A model generated the notes under the pieces. The model did not search any database, had not been told where the DNA came from, and saw only the letters and a list, made by a program, of their open reading frames with translations. A program made the position numbers and the translations under genes. From a virus (taxonomy: Duplodnaviria; Heunggongvirae; Uroviricota; Caudoviricetes), in IMG/VR virus record IMGVR_UViG_3300014846_000028, positions 1-5,925 of that record: a stretch of 5,925 bases of DNA. One strand, given 5' to 3'. This document shows, piece after piece, positions 2,214-5,813 of the stretch. The first letter of the stretch is position 1; the number at the start of each line of letters is the position of its first letter.

Positions 2214-2234
2214 TTATCTGTGCCGGGAATGAAA

Positions 2235-2561
2235 ATGAAAAGAAATCTTCCGTTAATTATTTTGTTGTCTTCTCTGGTTATGGGCTGTACGCAACATAAA
2301 ACAGATATGCCCCGACAGTTGGTTAAGGCATTACCACAATATCCGGCCTATGCAGCGGCAAATTATATAAAGGGACGGGTTGATGTGAAGTTTGATATTG
2401 GTGCTGATGGTACTGTCACCCGAATTGAGTTTATCCGTTCAGAGCCGCACCATTTGTTTGATGAGCAGGTTGTAAAGGCGATGGCAAAATGGCGATTTGA
2501 GAAGGACAGGCCGTGTAAAGGCGTGAAGAAAACGTTTATCTTTAGTCCTTCTGCACCCTGA
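2235..2561 (+). CDS. Lipoprotein consisting of a signal peptide, lipobox and a TonB C-terminal-like domain (TonB_C family)
   Basis: ATG 2235 (GGGAA upstream; alternative in-frame starts GTG 2220 and ATG 2229). N-terminus MKRNLPLIILLSSLVMGC is a signal peptide with lipobox LVMG/C and Thr at +2. The mature region PQYPAYAAANYIKGRVDVKFDIGADGTVTRIEFIRSEPHHLFDEQVVKAMAKWRFE aligns with the E. coli TonB C-terminal domain as recalled ([56 protein letters not shown]). Stop TGA 2559-2561. Confidence 0.8.
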   Translation: MKRNLPLIILLSSLVMGCTQHKTDMPRQLVKALPQYPAYAAANYIKGRVDVKFDIGADGTVTRIEFIRSEPHHLFDEQVVKAMAKWRFEKDRPCKGVKKTFIFSPSAP

Positions 2562-2692: not shown

Positions 2693-2893
2693 TCATTTCT
2701 CGTTATTTTTCATGCTGGCCGGGCGCAGATGCGTTGCATCTGTTGCCAGCCTTCTCCTGCAGGCTTCAATAACCCACGCTGAAAAGTTACCGGACCCTTT
2801 ATGCTCAAGGGCGATGCTGATCTGTTCAATCATGTGATTGGGGAAACGGATATTGCGGGTTGTGGTTCTGCGGGTCCGGTTTTTCGATGACAT
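2693..2893 (-). CDS. Small ribbon-helix-helix-like protein (66 aa), resembling the prophage YlcI/DUF3950 family as recalled
   Basis: Minus-strand ATG at 2893 with AAGGAA 6 nt upstream. Translation MSSKNRTRRTTTRNIRFPNHMIEQISIALEHKGSGNFSAWVIEACRRRLATDATHLRPASMKNNEK has a basic N-terminus, a short strand-like RNIRFP and two predicted helices, typical of Arc/MetJ/CopG-type folds. Divergent from the HNH gene. Confidence 0.75.
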   Translation of the reverse strand: MSSKNRTRRTTTRNIRFPNHMIEQISIALEHKGSGNFSAWVIEACRRRLATDATHLRPASMKNNEK

Positions 2894-2934: not shown

Positions 2935-3300
2935 ATGGCTGAGCTTCGTACACTCCAGAGCAGAATCAAAACACTGAATACCCGACGGGTGAATATTCTG
3001 AAGGGGGAACAGCGTCGTGTCAGTGGCAGTGCACGTGTTTCCCTCAAGCGTCATATCTGGCTCAGGGACGCCGGGCAGTGCTGTATCTGTGGTCGTGTGG
3101 TTGACCTCTGTGACAGTGAACTTGATCACCGAATTGCACTTCAGTTCGGTGGTGGTAATGAGGAGACGAATCTCTGGACGCTCTGTACCGAATGCCATCG
3201 ACAAAAGTCTGCTCGTGAAGCGGCGGGTGGTATGCCGGACCCGACGCTGCCGGAGGTGTCCGGAGGTAGTGGCAGAGCGGACGACATCATCGGACTGTAA
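2935..3300 (+). CDS. HNH endonuclease (phage terminase-associated type)
   Basis: Translation contains CCICGRVVDLCDSELDHRIALQFGGGNEETNLWTLCTECHRQK, the canonical HNH motif (CxxC...DH...N...CxxCH). GGGG RBS upstream of ATG 2935. Position immediately upstream of the cos region and TerS matches HK97-like packaging modules. Confidence 0.9.
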   Translation: MAELRTLQSRIKTLNTRRVNILKGEQRRVSGSARVSLKRHIWLRDAGQCCICGRVVDLCDSELDHRIALQFGGGNEETNLWTLCTECHRQKSAREAAGGMPDPTLPEVSGGSGRADDIIGL

Positions 3301-3393
3301 CCCGACCCGGGGGGGGGGATCATCCGGCGTAAAAAACGATCGCTTTGGACACCGCGCCCCCTCTCACGCAGAGAAAAAATTCCCGTTTCAGGG

Positions 3394-3519
3394 CAGTTAA
3401 CATGTTAACTGGCTTCCCGGGCATTTTTGCGGTTTTTATCTTTATTATTCAGTTTGTTGTGCGGAAAAAATGTTAACTGGCTTTTTCAGCAAATGTTAAC
3501 CAGGCAGCAGTTAACATTT
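3394..3519. repeat. Cluster of five GTTAAC-core sites (CAGTTAACAT / ATGTTAACTG in both orientations), including an 18-bp perfect palindrome and a 10-bp inverted repeat; probable terminase-binding (cosB-like) elements
   Basis: Perfect palindrome CAGTTAACATGTTAACTG at 3394-3411; ATGTTAACTGGCTT at 3402-3415 and again at 3470-3483; inverted repeat AAATGTTAAC (3491-3500) and GTTAACATTT (3510-3519) separated by 9 nt. I found only one other GTTAAC in the window (about 2021). The cluster sits between HNH and TerS, with an AT-rich stretch at 3421-3460 between copies. Confidence 0.5.
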
Positions 3520-3591
3520 GCGGCATGAGACGCCGGGAAAAATGGGCTGAACCATACCCGGCTGAGTGCGTTCTGGACCCGGGAGGAGGCT

Positions 3592-4155
3592 GTGCTGACA
3601 ACGCAAAAACGAAAATTTGCGCTGGCGCTCATGTCCGGGAAAAACAAAACAGCGTCAGCCATTGCCGCCGGTTATTCGGCGAAGACCGCCAGGGTTAAAG
3701 GCTCGCAGCTGGCAAAAGATCCGGAGGTGCTTGCGTTTATAGCCCGTAAACAATGCGAGACGGTGGAGGTGGATGAGGTTCCTGTTTACCGGCAGAAAAA
3801 ATCAGAGCAGGAGGATAAACCCCGTCGTCGTGAGGCGGCTGCAATACCACAGCCGGACGAAAACAATCCGGAGATGCCACCGTCCGTGGTGATATCTCCT
3901 GGTATTGAGTATATGGAGGACGGTCTTCCCGATCCGGTGAAAGCGATGGGGCGTCTTCTGGTGGAGAACATTAATACCGACCCCAGGCTGGCGCTGGATG
4001 CGGCTTATAAGCTGGCGCAGTTCACGCACCACAAAAAAGGGGATGCCGGTAAAAAATCGGCAAAAGGTGACGCGGCGAAAAAAGCGGCTAACCGTTTTGC
4101 GGTGCCACCACCACCCCGCCTGGTGGTGAATAATGATAACGAGGGGAACGGATGA
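3592..4155 (+). CDS. terS: Terminase small subunit (Terminase_2-like family)
   Basis: GTG 3592 is preceded by GGGAGGAGG (3581-3589). The N-terminal region KRKFALALMSGKNKTASAIAAGYSAKTARVKGSQLAKDPEV matches the conserved AGYSxKTA...GSxL signature of phage small terminase subunits. An acidic, Pro-rich C-terminal tail follows. Stop TGA 4153-4155 overlaps the TerL ATG (ATGA). Confidence 0.85.
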   Translation: MLTTQKRKFALALMSGKNKTASAIAAGYSAKTARVKGSQLAKDPEVLAFIARKQCETVEVDEVPVYRQKKSEQEDKPRRREAAAIPQPDENNPEMPPSVVISPGIEYMEDGLPDPVKAMGRLLVENINTDPRLALDAAYKLAQFTHHKKGDAGKKSAKGDAAKKAANRFAVPPPPRLVVNNDNEGNG

Positions 4156-5813
4156 TACCTGTATGGAGCACGGCCTGCCCGGACTGGGCAGTACGCCTGA
4201 AAAAGGGGCTGTCGATTATTCCGGCTCCGATTTATCCGGACCAGGCCGCACATGCCCTGGCGATTTTTAAACAACTACGGATTGTGGATGCACCGGGCAG
4301 CCCGACATTCGGGGAGTCCTGTGCACAGTGGGTGTTTGACCTGGTGGCGGCCCTGTTTGGCTCCTACGATGCGCAGACCGGTGTGCGCCATATCAAGGAA
4401 GTGTTCATTCTGATACCTAAAAAAAACAGCAAGTCCACGCTGGCCGCCGGGATCATGATGACGGCGCTGTTACTGAACTGGCGGCAGGCCGCGGGTTACA
4501 CGATTCTGGCCCCGACTGTGGAGGTGGCAGCCAACGCCTTCAACCCTGCCCGGGATATGGTACGACGCGACGATGATCTGGATGACCTCTGCCAGGTGCA
4601 GACGCATATCCGGACCATCACCCACCGGGTGACGGACACCACCCTTAAGGTGGTGGCAGCCGATCCGAATACGGTGTCCGGTATCAAGTCCGTGGGTACG
4701 CTGATTGATGAGTTATGGCTGTTTGGCAAACAGTACAAGGCGGAGGACATGTTACGTGAAGCCATAGGCGGCCTTGCCTCCCGCCCGGAAGGGTTTGTGG
4801 TGTATACGACCACCCAGTCGAATGAGCCGCCTGCCGGGGTGTTCAGGCAGAAACTGCAGTACGCCCGGGATGTGCGTGACGGCAAAATTCATGATCCGCA
4901 CTTTCTGCCGGTGATTTTTGAGCATCCGACGGAGATGGTGGAGAGCGGTGAGCACCTGCTGATGGAAAACCTCGCCATGGTCAATCCGAATCTCGGTTAT
5001 TCGGTGGATGAGGCCTTTCTGTACCGGGAGTACCGTAAAGCCCGGGAAGCCGGTGAAGAGACTTTTCGCGGTTTCATGTCAAAACACGCCAATGTGGAAA
5101 TTGGTCTTGCCCTGCGTTCTGACCGCTGGGCGGGGGCGGATTTCTGGGAGCAGCAGGGCAGGCGCATCAGTCTGGACGATATTCTGCAGCGTGCTGATGT
5201 GGTGACGGTGGGGATAGACGGCGGAGGGCTGGATGATCTGCTGGGGATGTACGTGATTGGGCGTGACCGGGAAACCCGGGAATGGCTGGGCTGGGGCCAT
5301 GCCTGGGCACATGAAACCGCGGTGGCCAGACGAAAAAGTGAGGCAGCCCGTTTTCAGGATTTTGTTGCCTGTGGGGATATGACCATTGTCCGTCGGGTCG
5401 GGGATGACACGGCGGAAGTGGCGGAGTATGTGCGTCGCATTCATGAGGCTGAGTTACTGGACCATATCGGTATTGACCCGTCAGGCGTGGGGCAGATTCT
5501 GGATTCACTGGCGGAAGCCGGGATCCCCGATGAGAGTGTGGTGGGGATAAGCCAGGGCTGGAAGCTGGGCGGTGCCATTAAAACCACCGAGCGAAAACTG
5601 GCTGAAGGGGTACTGGTGCATGGTGGCCAGCCCCTGATGGCCTGGTGCGTTGGTAATGCCCGTGTGGAGCCCAGAGGTAATGCCATTCTTATCACGAAAC
5701 AGGCCAGCGGACGGGGAAAAATTGACCCGCTGATGGCGCTCTTCAATGCGGTCTCCCTGATGTCCCTGAATCCGGAGCCAAAAAAGAAAGAATATGCGGT
5801 TTTTTTCATATAA
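4152..5813 (+). CDS. terL: Terminase large subunit (HK97/Terminase_1-like ATPase-nuclease)
   Basis: 553-aa ORF with GAGGGG RBS. Contains a Walker A-like P-loop (ILIPKKNSKSTLAAG) and Walker B-like TLIDELW, followed by a nuclease-type C-terminal half. Start is coupled to the terS stop. Several long minus-strand ORFs inside it are antisense shadows. Confidence 0.95.
   Translation: MIPVWSTACPDWAVRLKKGLSIIPAPIYPDQAAHALAIFKQLRIVDAPGSPTFGESCAQWVFDLVAALFGSYDAQTGVRHIKEVFILIPKKNSKSTLAAGIMMTALLLNWRQAAGYTILAPTVEVAANAFNPARDMVRRDDDLDDLCQVQTHIRTITHRVTDTTLKVVAADPNTVSGIKSVGTLIDELWLFGKQYKAEDMLREAIGGLASRPEGFVVYTTTQSNEPPAGVFRQKLQYARDVRDGKIHDPHFLPVIFEHPTEMVESGEHLLMENLAMVNPNLGYSVDEAFLYREYRKAREAGEETFRGFMSKHANVEIGLALRSDRWAGADFWEQQGRRISLDDILQRADVVTVGIDGGGLDDLLGMYVIGRDRETREWLGWGHAWAHETAVARRKSEAARFQDFVACGDMTIVRRVGDDTAEVAEYVRRIHEAELLDHIGIDPSGVGQILDSLAEAGIPDESVVGISQGWKLGGAIKTTERKLAEGVLVHGGQPLMAWCVGNARVEPRGNAILITKQASGRGKIDPLMALFNAVSLMSLNPEPKKKEYAVFFI

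What the first reader, a model, noticed from the sequence alone, without database searches (positions are those of the whole stretch)
3301..3591. Probable cos packaging site: G10 tract plus clustered GTTAAC palindromes between HNH and TerS
In HK97-like phages the HNH endonuclease gene abuts the right genome end and terS/terL the left end, so cos is expected exactly in this 290-nt non-coding gap. The gap starts with CCCGACCC followed by a 10-G homopolymer (3309-3318), GC-rich as cosN-type sites often are. It then carries five copies of a GTTAAC-core motif in both orientations within about 125 bp, including an 18-bp perfect palindrome (3394-3411) and a 10-bp inverted repeat pair (3491-3519), separated by an AT-rich, potentially bent segment (3421-3460). 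This fits an array of terminase small-subunit binding sites flanking a nicking site. If so, the prophage carries an intact-looking packaging origin.
Basis: partly seen in the sequence, partly recalled or inferred. Interest (0 to 1): 0.55.

Follow-up and report, generated by a model that had tools for sequence, protein, structure and literature searches.

The report
Prophage cos DNA-packaging site, remapped
The gap between the HNH and small-terminase genes is the phage's cos packaging site, but related phages with mapped ends put the cut in a C-rich 10-mer at 3353-3362 and not in the G10 run, which instead appears to be a conserved upstream part of the site, while the GTTAAC repeats are probably small-terminase binding sites.

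Summary
G10 lies at 3309-3318. Five ATGTTAAC copies lie within 3396-3517 (0.13 expected by chance; 0 of 200 shuffles reach 5). The 18-bp palindrome and the 72.5% AT spacer are also there.

Two related phages have mapped virion ends: Lys8385Vzw, whose cos region is near-identical, and Acinetobacter phage fEg-Aba01. Both have 10-nt 3' cohesive ends homologous to window 3353-3362 (CGCGCCCCCT), so the left end starts at 3363.

The G10 run is not the nick site. It is still a conserved part of the site. A G run of 5 or more sits at a fixed distance upstream in 57 of 60 related loci. HK97, phiE125 and phiKO2 have one in the same position, and HK97 and phiE125 share the window's 29-nt spacing to GAC.

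GTTAA(C) motifs are 37-fold enriched between the nick and terS in 61 loci from many genera. In 70 short-type loci the motif overlaps the terS start and fixes the rare TTA codon (70 of 70). One lineage keeps the same layout with a TGTACA motif and an altered TerS helix-turn-helix.

This is an ordinary HK97-class cos site. Its termini are already mapped in a sibling phage, but its subsites have not been described in the papers I could search.

The parts
2935..3300 (+). HNH endonuclease gene. By analogy with HK97 gp74, it is the accessory nuclease for cos cleavage.
   Evidence: Pfam PF01844 HNH, E 4.8e-07. It sits directly upstream of cos, terS and terL, as in HK97, D3, phiE125 and fEg-Aba01. Sequence similarity to HK97 gp74 itself is not significant.
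3309..3318 (+). G10 run. A conserved upstream subsite on the last-packaged (right-end) side of cos. It is not the nick site.
   Evidence: The G run is followed by 29 nt and then GAC in the window, HK97 and phiE125. Runs lie at similar distances from the right end in phiKO2, fEg-Aba01, Lys8385Vzw, Bunnybear and Constance. A G run of 5 or more lies at a fixed distance in 57 of 60 genome loci, against a background of 0.008 per 35 nt. Its length varies from 5 to 11 among 57 E. coli copies.
3319..3352 (+). Spacer between the G run and the overhang, ending in the conserved GGACAC (3347-3352).
   Evidence: GGACACCGC is conserved across the family consensus. The D3 right end reads GGACACCGCGCCCCCA.
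3353..3362 (+). Predicted 10-nt 3' cohesive end, CGCGCCCCCT. This is the equivalent of cosN.
   Evidence: It is homologous to the mapped ends CGCCCCCCCT of Lys8385Vzw and CGCCCCCCAT of fEg-Aba01. The window's variant is the commonest, in 39 of 57 copies. Coordinates were verified.
3363..3393 (+). Left-end core, CTCACGCAGAGAAAAAATTCCCGTTTCAGGG. It contains an A6 tract at 3374-3379 (+12 to +17).
   Evidence: It matches the first bases of the Lys8385Vzw and fEg-Aba01 genomes. It is conserved in Enterobacterales, Acinetobacter, Pseudomonas, Burkholderiales and a Geobacillus phage. HK97 TerS binds an A-tract site at +15 to +29 (PMC11331095).
3394..3411 (.). Perfect palindrome CAGTTAACATGTTAACTG, made of two ATGTTAAC sites. 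It is the ancestral, family-wide GTTAAC element at +32 to +49.
   Evidence: The same position holds GT(A/T)AACATGTTAAC in about 70 short-type loci, where it contains the terS ATG. In those loci Leu2 is TTA in 70 of 70 genes, against 3 of 466 other Leu codons. L160 has CTATGTACATGTACATAG at the same position.
3412..3469 (.). AT-rich spacer (3421-3460 is 72.5% AT) with T-tracts at 3424, 3433, 3441 and 3453. It is possibly bendable DNA between site groups.
   Evidence: No IHF consensus within one mismatch. The analogous AT-rich spacer is present in L160. The whole of 3412-3591 is absent from short-type relatives such as FSL SP-016.
3470..3477 (+). ATGTTAAC site 3. It lies within a 17-nt direct repeat of 3399-3415.
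   Evidence: Invariant in 57 of 57 distinct copies.
3493..3500 (+). ATGTTAAC site 4. It is the left arm of the 12-nt inverted repeat 3489-3500 / 3510-3521.
3510..3517 (-). ATGTTAAC site 5, in inverted orientation.
3592..4155 (+). terS. The small terminase has an N-terminal Terminase_2-type helix-turn-helix and is the proposed reader of the GTTAAC sites.
   Evidence: Pfam PF03592, residues 2-57. There is a weak match to the solved DNA-binding domain of the SF6 small terminase (4zc3, 2cmp). The GTG start is supported by the GGAGGAGG Shine-Dalgarno sequence at 3581-3588 and by the MLT... N-termini of homologues.
4152..5813 (+). terL. The large terminase is of the HK97 class, with ATPase and nuclease domains.
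   Evidence: Pfam PF03354 and PF20441. These are the same two domains as HK97 gp2. Identity to HK97 gp2 is 23%, E 7e-13.

Best explanation
Window 3301-3591 is the cos site of an HK97-class, HNH-assisted packaging system. The prophage belongs to the E. coli lambdoid group that includes the Stx phages of genus Pankowvirus and BP-4795.

**Cutting.** Terminase, helped by the HNH protein, cuts the concatemer to leave a 10-nt 3' overhang, CGCGCCCCCT (3353-3362). The packaged genome therefore starts at 3363 and ends at 3362.

**Two modules.** The site has two parts.
- The right-end half is the G run at 3309-3318, then 29 nt, then GAC(AC), then the C-rich overhang. Phages with unrelated TerS proteins share this half, so it is most likely read by the conserved TerL/HNH nuclease machinery when nicking or when ending a packaging run. 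In position it resembles lambda cosQ.
- The left-end half is the CTCACGCAGAGAAAAAATTCCC box followed by GTTAAC sites. It occurs only with this TerS family and is most likely the TerS binding region, comparable in function to lambda cosB or SPP1 pacL/pacR.

**This lineage.** The single ancestral GTTAAC near-palindrome once overlapped the terS start codon. Here it has become a non-coding perfect palindrome, and about 180 bp of extra DNA carries three more sites and an AT-rich spacer. This would give an oligomeric TerS ring several helix-turn-helix contacts on bendable DNA.

**Shown versus inferred.** Shown: the position of the ends by homology to mapped phages, conservation of each subsite, and DNA-level selection on the motif. 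Inferred: which protein binds which subsite.
For: **Gene context**
- HNH (PF01844), TerS (PF03592) and TerL (PF03354 + PF20441) flank the gap.

**Mapped ends in relatives**
- Lys8385Vzw virion DNA analysed with PhageTerm gave cos packaging with 3' cohesive ends CGCCCCCCCT at the genome end (PMC7946995).
- Its record ends ...GGACACCGCCCCCCCT and starts CTCACGCAGAGAAAAAATTCCCG. This aligns base for base to window 3347-3385.
- fEg-Aba01 has the 10-nt 3' end CGCCCCCCAT, found with PhageTerm and confirmed by heat/cool restriction digests (PMC7354433). It has the same flanks, GGACACCG... | CGCACGCACAAAAAAAATTCCC, followed by three AAGTTAAAG repeats.

**Breadth of the core**
- An nhmmer profile of the core finds it directly upstream of terS in 61 of 67 genome loci that encode a TerS homologue. 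These span Enterobacterales, Pseudomonas, Acinetobacter and Burkholderiales.

**G run**
- 57 of 60 loci have a G run of 5 or more at a fixed distance, against a background of 0.008 per 35 nt.
- HK97, phiE125 and the window all have the G run, then 29 nt, then GAC, then the overhang. phiKO2, fEg-Aba01, Lys8385Vzw, Bunnybear and Constance have a run at a similar distance from the right end.
- D3 has an unrelated TerS, yet its right end GGACACCGCGCCCCCA nearly matches the window.

**GTTAAC**
- The 8-mer occurs 5 times against 0.13 expected.
- GTTAA/TTAAC density between +20 and the terS start is 5.39 per 100 nt, against 0.147 per 100 nt in the flanks, across 61 loci. Arrays reach 9 copies in Acinetobacter.
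- In 70 distinct short-type terS genes, codon 2 is TTA in 70 of 70. TTA is 3 of 466 other Leu codons in the same genes. The window and L160, whose terS start lies away from the motif, use CTG.
- L160 repeats the window's layout with a different motif: a palindrome at +32, an AT-rich spacer and two more half-sites, all based on ATGTACAT. Its TerS helix-turn-helix is changed (ARNKG against ARVKG or ARSKG, and AAKRAGYS).
- All five sites are intact in 57 of 57 distinct E. coli copies.
Against: - No virion-end data exist for this particular prophage. The cut position is transferred from relatives.
- No binding experiment links TerS to GTTAAC.
- In HK97, the only system with a solved TerS-DNA complex, TerS binds one 15-bp A-tract site at +15 to +29. 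By that analogy the conserved A6/TTCCC box at +9 to +21 could be the TerS site, leaving GTTAAC to something else.
- Within the E. coli copies the whole of 3363-3700 is nearly invariant. Conservation of the three extra sites therefore cannot be separated from recent common descent.
- The motif swap with a TerS change is seen in a single lineage only. L160 had no second example.
- The assignment of the G run to TerL/HNH rests only on its presence across TerS families. Paenibacillus HB10c2 and Staphylococcus 42E lack it, and D3, ST64B and TG1 have only interrupted G-rich blocks.
Confidence: 0.8

Rival explanations
1. The G10 tract with CCCGACCC is the cosN-like nicking site, and the GTTAAC repeats flank it as TerS sites.
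For: The G run is GC-rich and sits at the start of the gap. It is conserved across many related cos regions.
Against: The mapped ends of Lys8385Vzw and fEg-Aba01 lie 35 nt downstream of the G run, in the C-rich 10-mer. The G-run length varies from 5 to 11 among copies, which is hard to reconcile with precise staggered nicks inside it. All the repeats lie on one side of the cut.
Confidence: 0.03
2. The region is cos, but TerS recognises the A-tract box at +9 to +21, as in HK97. On this view the extra GTTAAC copies in 3412-3591 are leftovers from duplications of the old terS 5' end and have little or no function. The ancestral palindrome would be conserved for another reason, such as terS translation start context or binding by HNH, TerL or a host protein.
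For: - HK97 TerS needs only a 15-bp A-tract site close to the cut.
- The A6/TTCCC box is as widely conserved as GTTAA.
- Short-type relatives such as FSL SP-016 and about 70 loci function with one near-palindrome and no extra segment.
- The 17-nt direct repeat 3399-3415 / 3467-3483 looks like a duplication scar.
- In E. coli copies the extra sites cannot be separated from the surrounding invariant DNA.
Against: - HK97 gp1 is not homologous to this TerS (15% identity, no Pfam hit). Its binding mode therefore need not carry over.
- GTTAA arrays expanded independently in Acinetobacter (3-9 copies), Cupriavidus and E. coli.
- L160 rebuilt the same multi-site layout with another motif.
- The fixed TTA codon shows selection on the DNA motif itself.
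Confidence: 0.15
3. The gap is not a packaging site. The repeats would then be operators or a promoter for late or terminase gene regulation, or the gap would encode a small RNA or a peptide, for example the 24-codon ORF at 3402-3476.
For: Palindromic repeats are typical operators. A weak promoter-like match lies on the minus strand at 3499-3470. An ATG inside the palindrome opens a hydrophobic 24-codon ORF.
Against: Promoter-like matches are no more frequent than in shuffles, and there is no terminator or Rfam hit. The ORF is not conserved in L160 and has a poor Shine-Dalgarno sequence. The region is homologous to physically mapped genome ends.
Confidence: 0.02

Closest known systems
cos of Escherichia phage Lys8385Vzw (MT225100; Stx1 phage related to 1717 and BP-4795)
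   Same: The left half is the same sequence, 99% identical from 3363 onward. The HNH-cos-terS-terL order is the same. PhageTerm mapped a 10-nt 3' cohesive end at the homologous 10-mer.
   Different: The overhang differs at one base (CGCCCCCCCT against CGCGCCCCCT). The G run is G7 rather than G10, and the HNH 3' end is about 91% identical. The paper reports only the overhang, not the subsites.
HK97 cos (gp74 HNH, gp1 TerS, gp2 TerL)
   Same: The HNH gene lies at the right end and terS/terL at the left. The overhang is 3' and 10 nt long. The right end has the layout G9, 29 nt, GAC, overhang. The TerL has the same two Pfam domains. An A/T-tract lies within 30 bp inside the left end.
   Different: The TerS is unrelated. 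HK97 has a single 15-bp TerS site at +15 to +29 and no GTTAAC array. There is no nucleotide similarity in the left half.
cos of Acinetobacter phage fEg-Aba01, and the right end of Pseudomonas phage D3
   Same: fEg-Aba01 has a homologous TerS N-terminus (51% identity over residues 2-50). It also shares the G6 run, GGACACCG, the overhang, the CGCACGCA..AAAAAATTCCC box and GTTAA repeats starting at +33. The D3 right end GGACACCGCGCCCCCA nearly matches the window.
   Different: fEg-Aba01 has three direct AAGTTAAAG repeats rather than palindromic ATGTTAAC sites, and its terS starts at +73. D3 has an unrelated TerS, an unrelated left end and an interrupted G-rich block.
Lambda cos (cosQ-cosN-cosB)
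   Same: It has a comparable three-part logic: an upstream element on the last-packaged side, a nick site, and several small-terminase sites with intervening bendable DNA on the terS side. This is textbook knowledge and is summarised in PMC13595911.
   Different: Lambda has a 12-nt 5' overhang, gpA/gpNu1 terminase families, no HNH protein and an IHF site. None of these features is found here.
SPP1/SF6 pac (G1P small terminase)
   Same: The TerS N-terminal helix-turn-helix belongs to the same Pfam family, Terminase_2. There is a weak match to the solved DNA-binding domain of the SF6 small terminase. From my own knowledge, G1P binds repeated boxes on bent DNA on either side of the cut.
   Different: Those phages package by the headful mechanism with permuted ends and a different TerL class. 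This system has defined cohesive ends.

Membership tests
HK97-class, HNH-assisted 3'-cos packaging site | The site lies between an HNH endonuclease gene and terS-terL. | tested here: met
   HNH at 2935-3300, gap, TerS at 3592-4155, TerL at 4152-5813.
HK97-class, HNH-assisted 3'-cos packaging site | The large terminase is of the HK97 class. | tested here: met
   PF03354 and PF20441, as in HK97 gp2. BLASTP against gp2 gives E 7e-13 at 23% identity.
HK97-class, HNH-assisted 3'-cos packaging site | Virion DNA has defined 3' protruding cohesive ends of about 10 nt. | not testable with these tools
   No virion data exist for this prophage. The homologous 10-mer was mapped as a 3' end in Lys8385Vzw (near-identical cos) and in fEg-Aba01.
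HK97-class, HNH-assisted 3'-cos packaging site | The right end has the layout G run, about 29 nt, GAC, overhang. This feature was derived here and is not a published criterion. | tested here: met
   In the window: G10 at 3309-3318, 29 nt, GAC at 3348-3350. The same 29-nt spacing occurs in HK97 and phiE125, and a G run at a similar distance from the right end occurs in phiKO2.
HK97-class, HNH-assisted 3'-cos packaging site | The small terminase is of the HK97 gp1 type and binds one A-tract site at +15 to +29. | tested here: not met
   The TerS is a Terminase_2-type helix-turn-helix protein, 15% identical to gp1. An A6 tract is present at +12 to +17, but binding was not tested.
Lambda-type cos | 12-nt 5' overhang, gpA/gpNu1 terminase, and an IHF site within cosB. 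| tested here: not met
   The homologues have 3' 10-nt ends. TerL hits the HK97-class Pfam domains only. There is no IHF consensus within one mismatch in 3301-3591.
SPP1/SF6-type pac site | Terminase_2 small terminase combined with headful packaging and permuted ends. | tested here: not met
   The TerS N-terminal domain matches Terminase_2. However, TerL is of the HK97 class and relatives have fixed cohesive ends.

The most novel reading that the evidence does not exclude
HK97-class cos sites may be built from two separable modules.

- The right-end module is the G run, then about 29 bp, then GAC and a C-rich 10-nt 3' overhang. In full or in part it appears with unrelated TerS families, in proteobacterial phages (HK97, phiE125, phiKO2, D3) and as a G run near the right end of two actinobacterial phages. 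It would be the undescribed recognition or termination element for the TerL-HNH nuclease pair, comparable to lambda cosQ.
- The left-end module depends on the TerS family. Here it is an expandable array of GTTAA(C) sites whose specificity co-evolves with the TerS helix-turn-helix, as the TGTACA variant in L160 suggests.

None of the HK97 packaging papers I could read mentions the G run.
Probability: 0.3. Interest if true: 0.55.

Novelty: new member of a known kind. Interest (0 to 1): 0.35.

Why it matters
**Practical value**
- The result fixes the physical genome ends of a very common prophage family. The gap sequence occurs in 1277 of 5426 complete E. coli genomes, with up to 7 copies per genome. 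The family includes many Stx1, Stx2a and Stx2c phages.
- This helps with orienting phage genomes and with judging whether a prophage can still be packaged. It also helps predict cross-packaging between co-resident prophages that share cos. Four overhang variants exist.

**Mechanistic value**
- The comparison gives HK97-class packaging a testable subsite map. HK97 is a structural model system in which it is still unsettled how TerL and the HNH protein make the staggered 3' cut.
- The map has three candidates for mutagenesis and footprinting: a conserved G run three helical turns upstream of the cut, a conserved left-end box, and a TerS-family-specific repeat array.

Tried and rejected
- **Genome-contig scan with the single TerS protein:** it returned no confirmed relatives. 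Repeating it with a four-sequence alignment worked.
- **Conservation among 67 distinct close copies from IMG/VR:** this could not separate the motifs from their surroundings, because 3363-3700 is nearly invariant throughout. More distant relatives were needed.
- **Second example of the L160 TGTACA variant:** an exact-pattern scan found only the L160 contig. A protein-based scan found only short-type relatives. The co-variation argument therefore rests on one lineage.
- **IHF consensus in the AT-rich spacer:** none within one mismatch.
- **Promoter, terminator and Rfam scans of the gap:** nothing above background.
- **Small ORF at 3402-3476:** considered and rejected, because it is not conserved in L160 and has a weak Shine-Dalgarno sequence.
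- **phiE125 as a TerS relative with mapped ends:** its TerS and left end are unrelated. It proved useful only for comparing right ends.
- **phi330 (PV189401):** its record starts at terL, not at cos, so it gives no end information.
- **Literature searches:** searches for the G run in HK97 cos and for GTTAAC with terminase found nothing relevant. Kala 2014 and the D3 genome paper are not held.
- **Fur-box-like AT-rich motif upstream of the G run:** seen in HK97, D3 and some loci, but present in only 11 of 61 loci and absent from the window. It is not part of the core.

Full report
**1. Observation**

The window is the late region of an E. coli lambdoid prophage. Its genes, in order, are:
- lysozyme (1-537)
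- Rz (1180-1638)
- a TonB_C lipoprotein (2220-2561)
- a DUF3950 gene on the minus strand (2693-2893)
- HNH (2935-3300)
- a 291-nt gap
- TerS (3592-4155)
- TerL (4152-5813)

- G10 lies at 3309-3318.
- GTTAAC occurs at 3396, 3404, 3472, 3495 and 3510. There is one other copy in the window, and about 1.3 are expected.
- The true repeat unit is ATGTTAAC. It occurs 5 times, all within 3396-3517, against 0.13 expected. None of 200 shuffles reached 5.
- CAGTTAACATGTTAACTG at 3394-3411 is a perfect palindrome.
- An inverted pair has 12-nt arms at 3489-3500 and 3510-3521.
- The segment 3421-3460 is 72.5% AT.

**2. What phage this is**

The region is 95-97% identical to many Stx1a, Stx2a and Stx2c converting phages, to BP-4795, and to 1717, 2851 and YYZ-2008 of genus Pankowvirus. 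The gap alone occurs in 1277 of 5426 complete E. coli genomes, with up to 7 copies per genome.

**3. Where the DNA is cut**

Two relatives have experimentally mapped ends.

Lys8385Vzw was induced, sequenced from virions and analysed with PhageTerm. The result was cos packaging with 3' cohesive ends, CGCCCCCCCT, at the genome end (PMC7946995). Its record ends ...GGACACCGCCCCCCCT and begins CTCACGCAGAGAAAAAATTCCCG.... This aligns without gaps to window 3347-3385.

Acinetobacter phage fEg-Aba01 has a 10-nt 3' end, CGCCCCCCAT. It was found with PhageTerm and confirmed by heat/cool restriction digests (PMC7354433), and it is annotated in the record. Its flanks are ...GGGGGG-35 nt-CGCCCCCCAT | CGCACGCACAAAAAAAATTCCCTCTCAG..., which is plainly homologous to the window.

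From these two phages I infer the following for the window.
- The overhang is 3353-3362, CGCGCCCCCT.
- The left end starts at 3363 (coordinates checked).
- The G10 run ends 35 nt upstream of the overhang, so it is not the nick site.

One IMG/VR contig begins at window-equivalent 3362. This is a minor independent hint.

**4. The site is a deeply conserved element**

I built a 12-sequence nhmmer profile running from the G run to +50. It finds the element directly upstream of terS in 61 of 67 loci that encode a TerS homologue. These loci come from one genome per species across Enterobacterales, Pseudomonas, Acinetobacter, Burkholderiales and others. A Geobacillus phage carries it too.

The consensus reads: G run, about 29 nt, GGACACCGC, C-rich 10-mer, CTCACGCrCAGAAAAwwTCCC, TTTGGAG, TGTwAAcATG(gct)TTAACAG.

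**5. The G run**

A G run of 5 or more lies at an almost fixed distance in 57 of 60 loci. The background rate is 0.008 per 35 nt.

The same layout occurs in phages whose TerS is unrelated.
- HK97: G9, 29 nt, GAC, CGCCGCCAAA.
- phiE125: G6, 29 nt, GAC, CGCCCGCTTC.
- phiKO2, Gordonia Bunnybear and Arthrobacter Constance have G6 runs 38-46 nt from the right end.
- D3 ends GGACACCGCGCCCCCA behind an interrupted G block. Its TerS shows no similarity to the window's, and its TerL is only 21% identical.
- Paenibacillus HB10c2 and Staphylococcus 42E lack the run.

Among 57 distinct E. coli copies the run length varies from 5 to 11, and the overhang has four variants.

The right half of cos therefore tracks the TerL/HNH machinery and not TerS. 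I infer that it serves nicking or termination, as lambda cosQ does by position. None of the HK97 packaging papers held mentions it.

**6. The GTTAAC sites**

The 61 genome loci give the first three lines of evidence, and the IMG/VR relatives give the last two.
- GTTAA/TTAAC occurs at 5.39 per 100 nt between +20 and the terS start, against 0.147 per 100 nt in the flanks. That is a 37-fold enrichment.
- Independent arrays exist, with up to 9 copies in an Acinetobacter genome locus, three direct AAGTTAAAG repeats in phage fEg-Aba01, and 4 in Cupriavidus.
- In the common short type (FSL SP-016 and about 70 distinct IMG/VR loci), terS starts at +40 inside GT(A/T)AACATGTTAAC.
- In those 70 genes Leu2 is TTA in 70 of 70, although TTA is only 3 of 466 other Leu codons in the same genes. 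The window and L160, whose terS start lies away from the motif, use CTG. This shows selection on the DNA motif itself.
- L160 reproduces the window's long layout with a different motif. It has CTATGTACATGTACATAG at +32, an AT-rich spacer, two more ATGTACATA copies and terS at +162. Its TerS helix-turn-helix differs as well.

The window's TerS N-terminus is a Terminase_2 helix-turn-helix with weak similarity to the solved DNA-binding domain of the SF6 small terminase.

I conclude that GTTAAC is most likely the TerS recognition unit. The palindrome at 3394-3411 is the ancestral site. The segment 3412-3591 is a lineage-specific extension that adds three sites on AT-rich DNA. No IHF consensus is present.

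**7. Caveats**

- The cut position is transferred by homology, not measured for this prophage.
- Nothing has been shown about which protein binds which subsite.
- HK97 TerS binds a single A-tract site at +15 to +29. The conserved A6/TTCCC box at +9 to +21 is therefore a serious alternative, or additional, TerS site. HK97 gp1 is not homologous to this TerS, however.
- The extra sites cannot be separated from the surrounding invariant DNA within E. coli.
- The motif and helix-turn-helix co-variation rests on one lineage.

**8. Verdict**

The finding is real, and its main interpretation (cos) is correct. It needs three corrections.
- The nick site is the C-rich 10-mer at 3353-3362.
- The G10 run is a conserved upstream subsite.
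- The repeats all lie on the terS side of the cut.

This is an ordinary member of a known kind. Its termini are effectively already published for a sibling phage. The subsite map derived here, and especially the G run shared with HK97, is a modestly interesting and testable addition.

Noticed in passing
L004 1546-3004 (PPompW_132418); junction corresponds to window ~3314: An IS110-family element, ISEc20, ends inside the G run (...GTAAC|GGGGGATCATCC). The lysis genes and HNH are missing upstream of it: the order is Q, tRNAs, IS, then the rest of cos and terS. This prophage keeps the nick site and terminase genes but has lost its HNH gene.
   Followed up: partly
L046 position 1 (IMGVR_UViG_2681813226_000009) = window 3362: An assembled contig begins at TCTCACGCAG, 1 nt from the mapped left end. 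This could reflect reads from linear phage DNA in the culture, or it could be coincidence.
   Followed up: no
window 3402-3476 (+): The ATG inside the palindrome opens a 24-codon hydrophobic ORF, MLTGFPGIFAVFIFIIQFVVRKKC. Its first three codons match the ancestral terS start (MLT). It has a weak Shine-Dalgarno sequence and is not conserved in L160, so it is probably a relic.
   Followed up: partly
window 3200-3700, compared across 67 distinct copies (L005-L084): Conservation changes sharply at cos. The HNH 3' end and 3303-3346 vary, while 3363-3700 is almost invariant. This suggests a mosaic recombination joint at or near the cohesive end.
   Followed up: partly
window 3353-3362 and 3309-3318 in 57 distinct long-type copies: There are four cohesive-end variants: CGCGCCCCCT (39), CGCCCCCCCT (9), CGCCCCCCGT (8) and CGCGCCCCGT (1). 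The G-run length ranges from 5 to 11. Genomes carry up to 7 copies of the gap, so co-resident prophages may or may not have compatible ends.
   Followed up: partly
L092 640-680 (HK97), L325 (D3), L159-L170: AT-rich blocks resembling a Fur box (AATGATAnnnATTnTCAT) lie just upstream of the G run in HK97, D3 and some short-type loci (11 of 61 genome loci). They are absent from the window, where the HNH stop codon is only 8 nt from the G run.
   Followed up: partly
L329 (Geobacillus phage vB_GthS_NIIg9.7, last 110 nt of record): A Firmicutes phage carries the same core: GGGGG, 29 nt, GAC, CGGCGGGGGC, then ..CGCGCGAACAAAATTCCC...GGTTAAAGG. The element therefore extends beyond Proteobacteria.
   Followed up: no
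window 2220-2561 (+) and 2693-2893 (-): A small lipoprotein with a TonB C-terminal domain and an oppositely oriented DUF3950 gene lie between the lysis cassette and HNH. They look like cargo (moron-type) genes.
   Followed up: no
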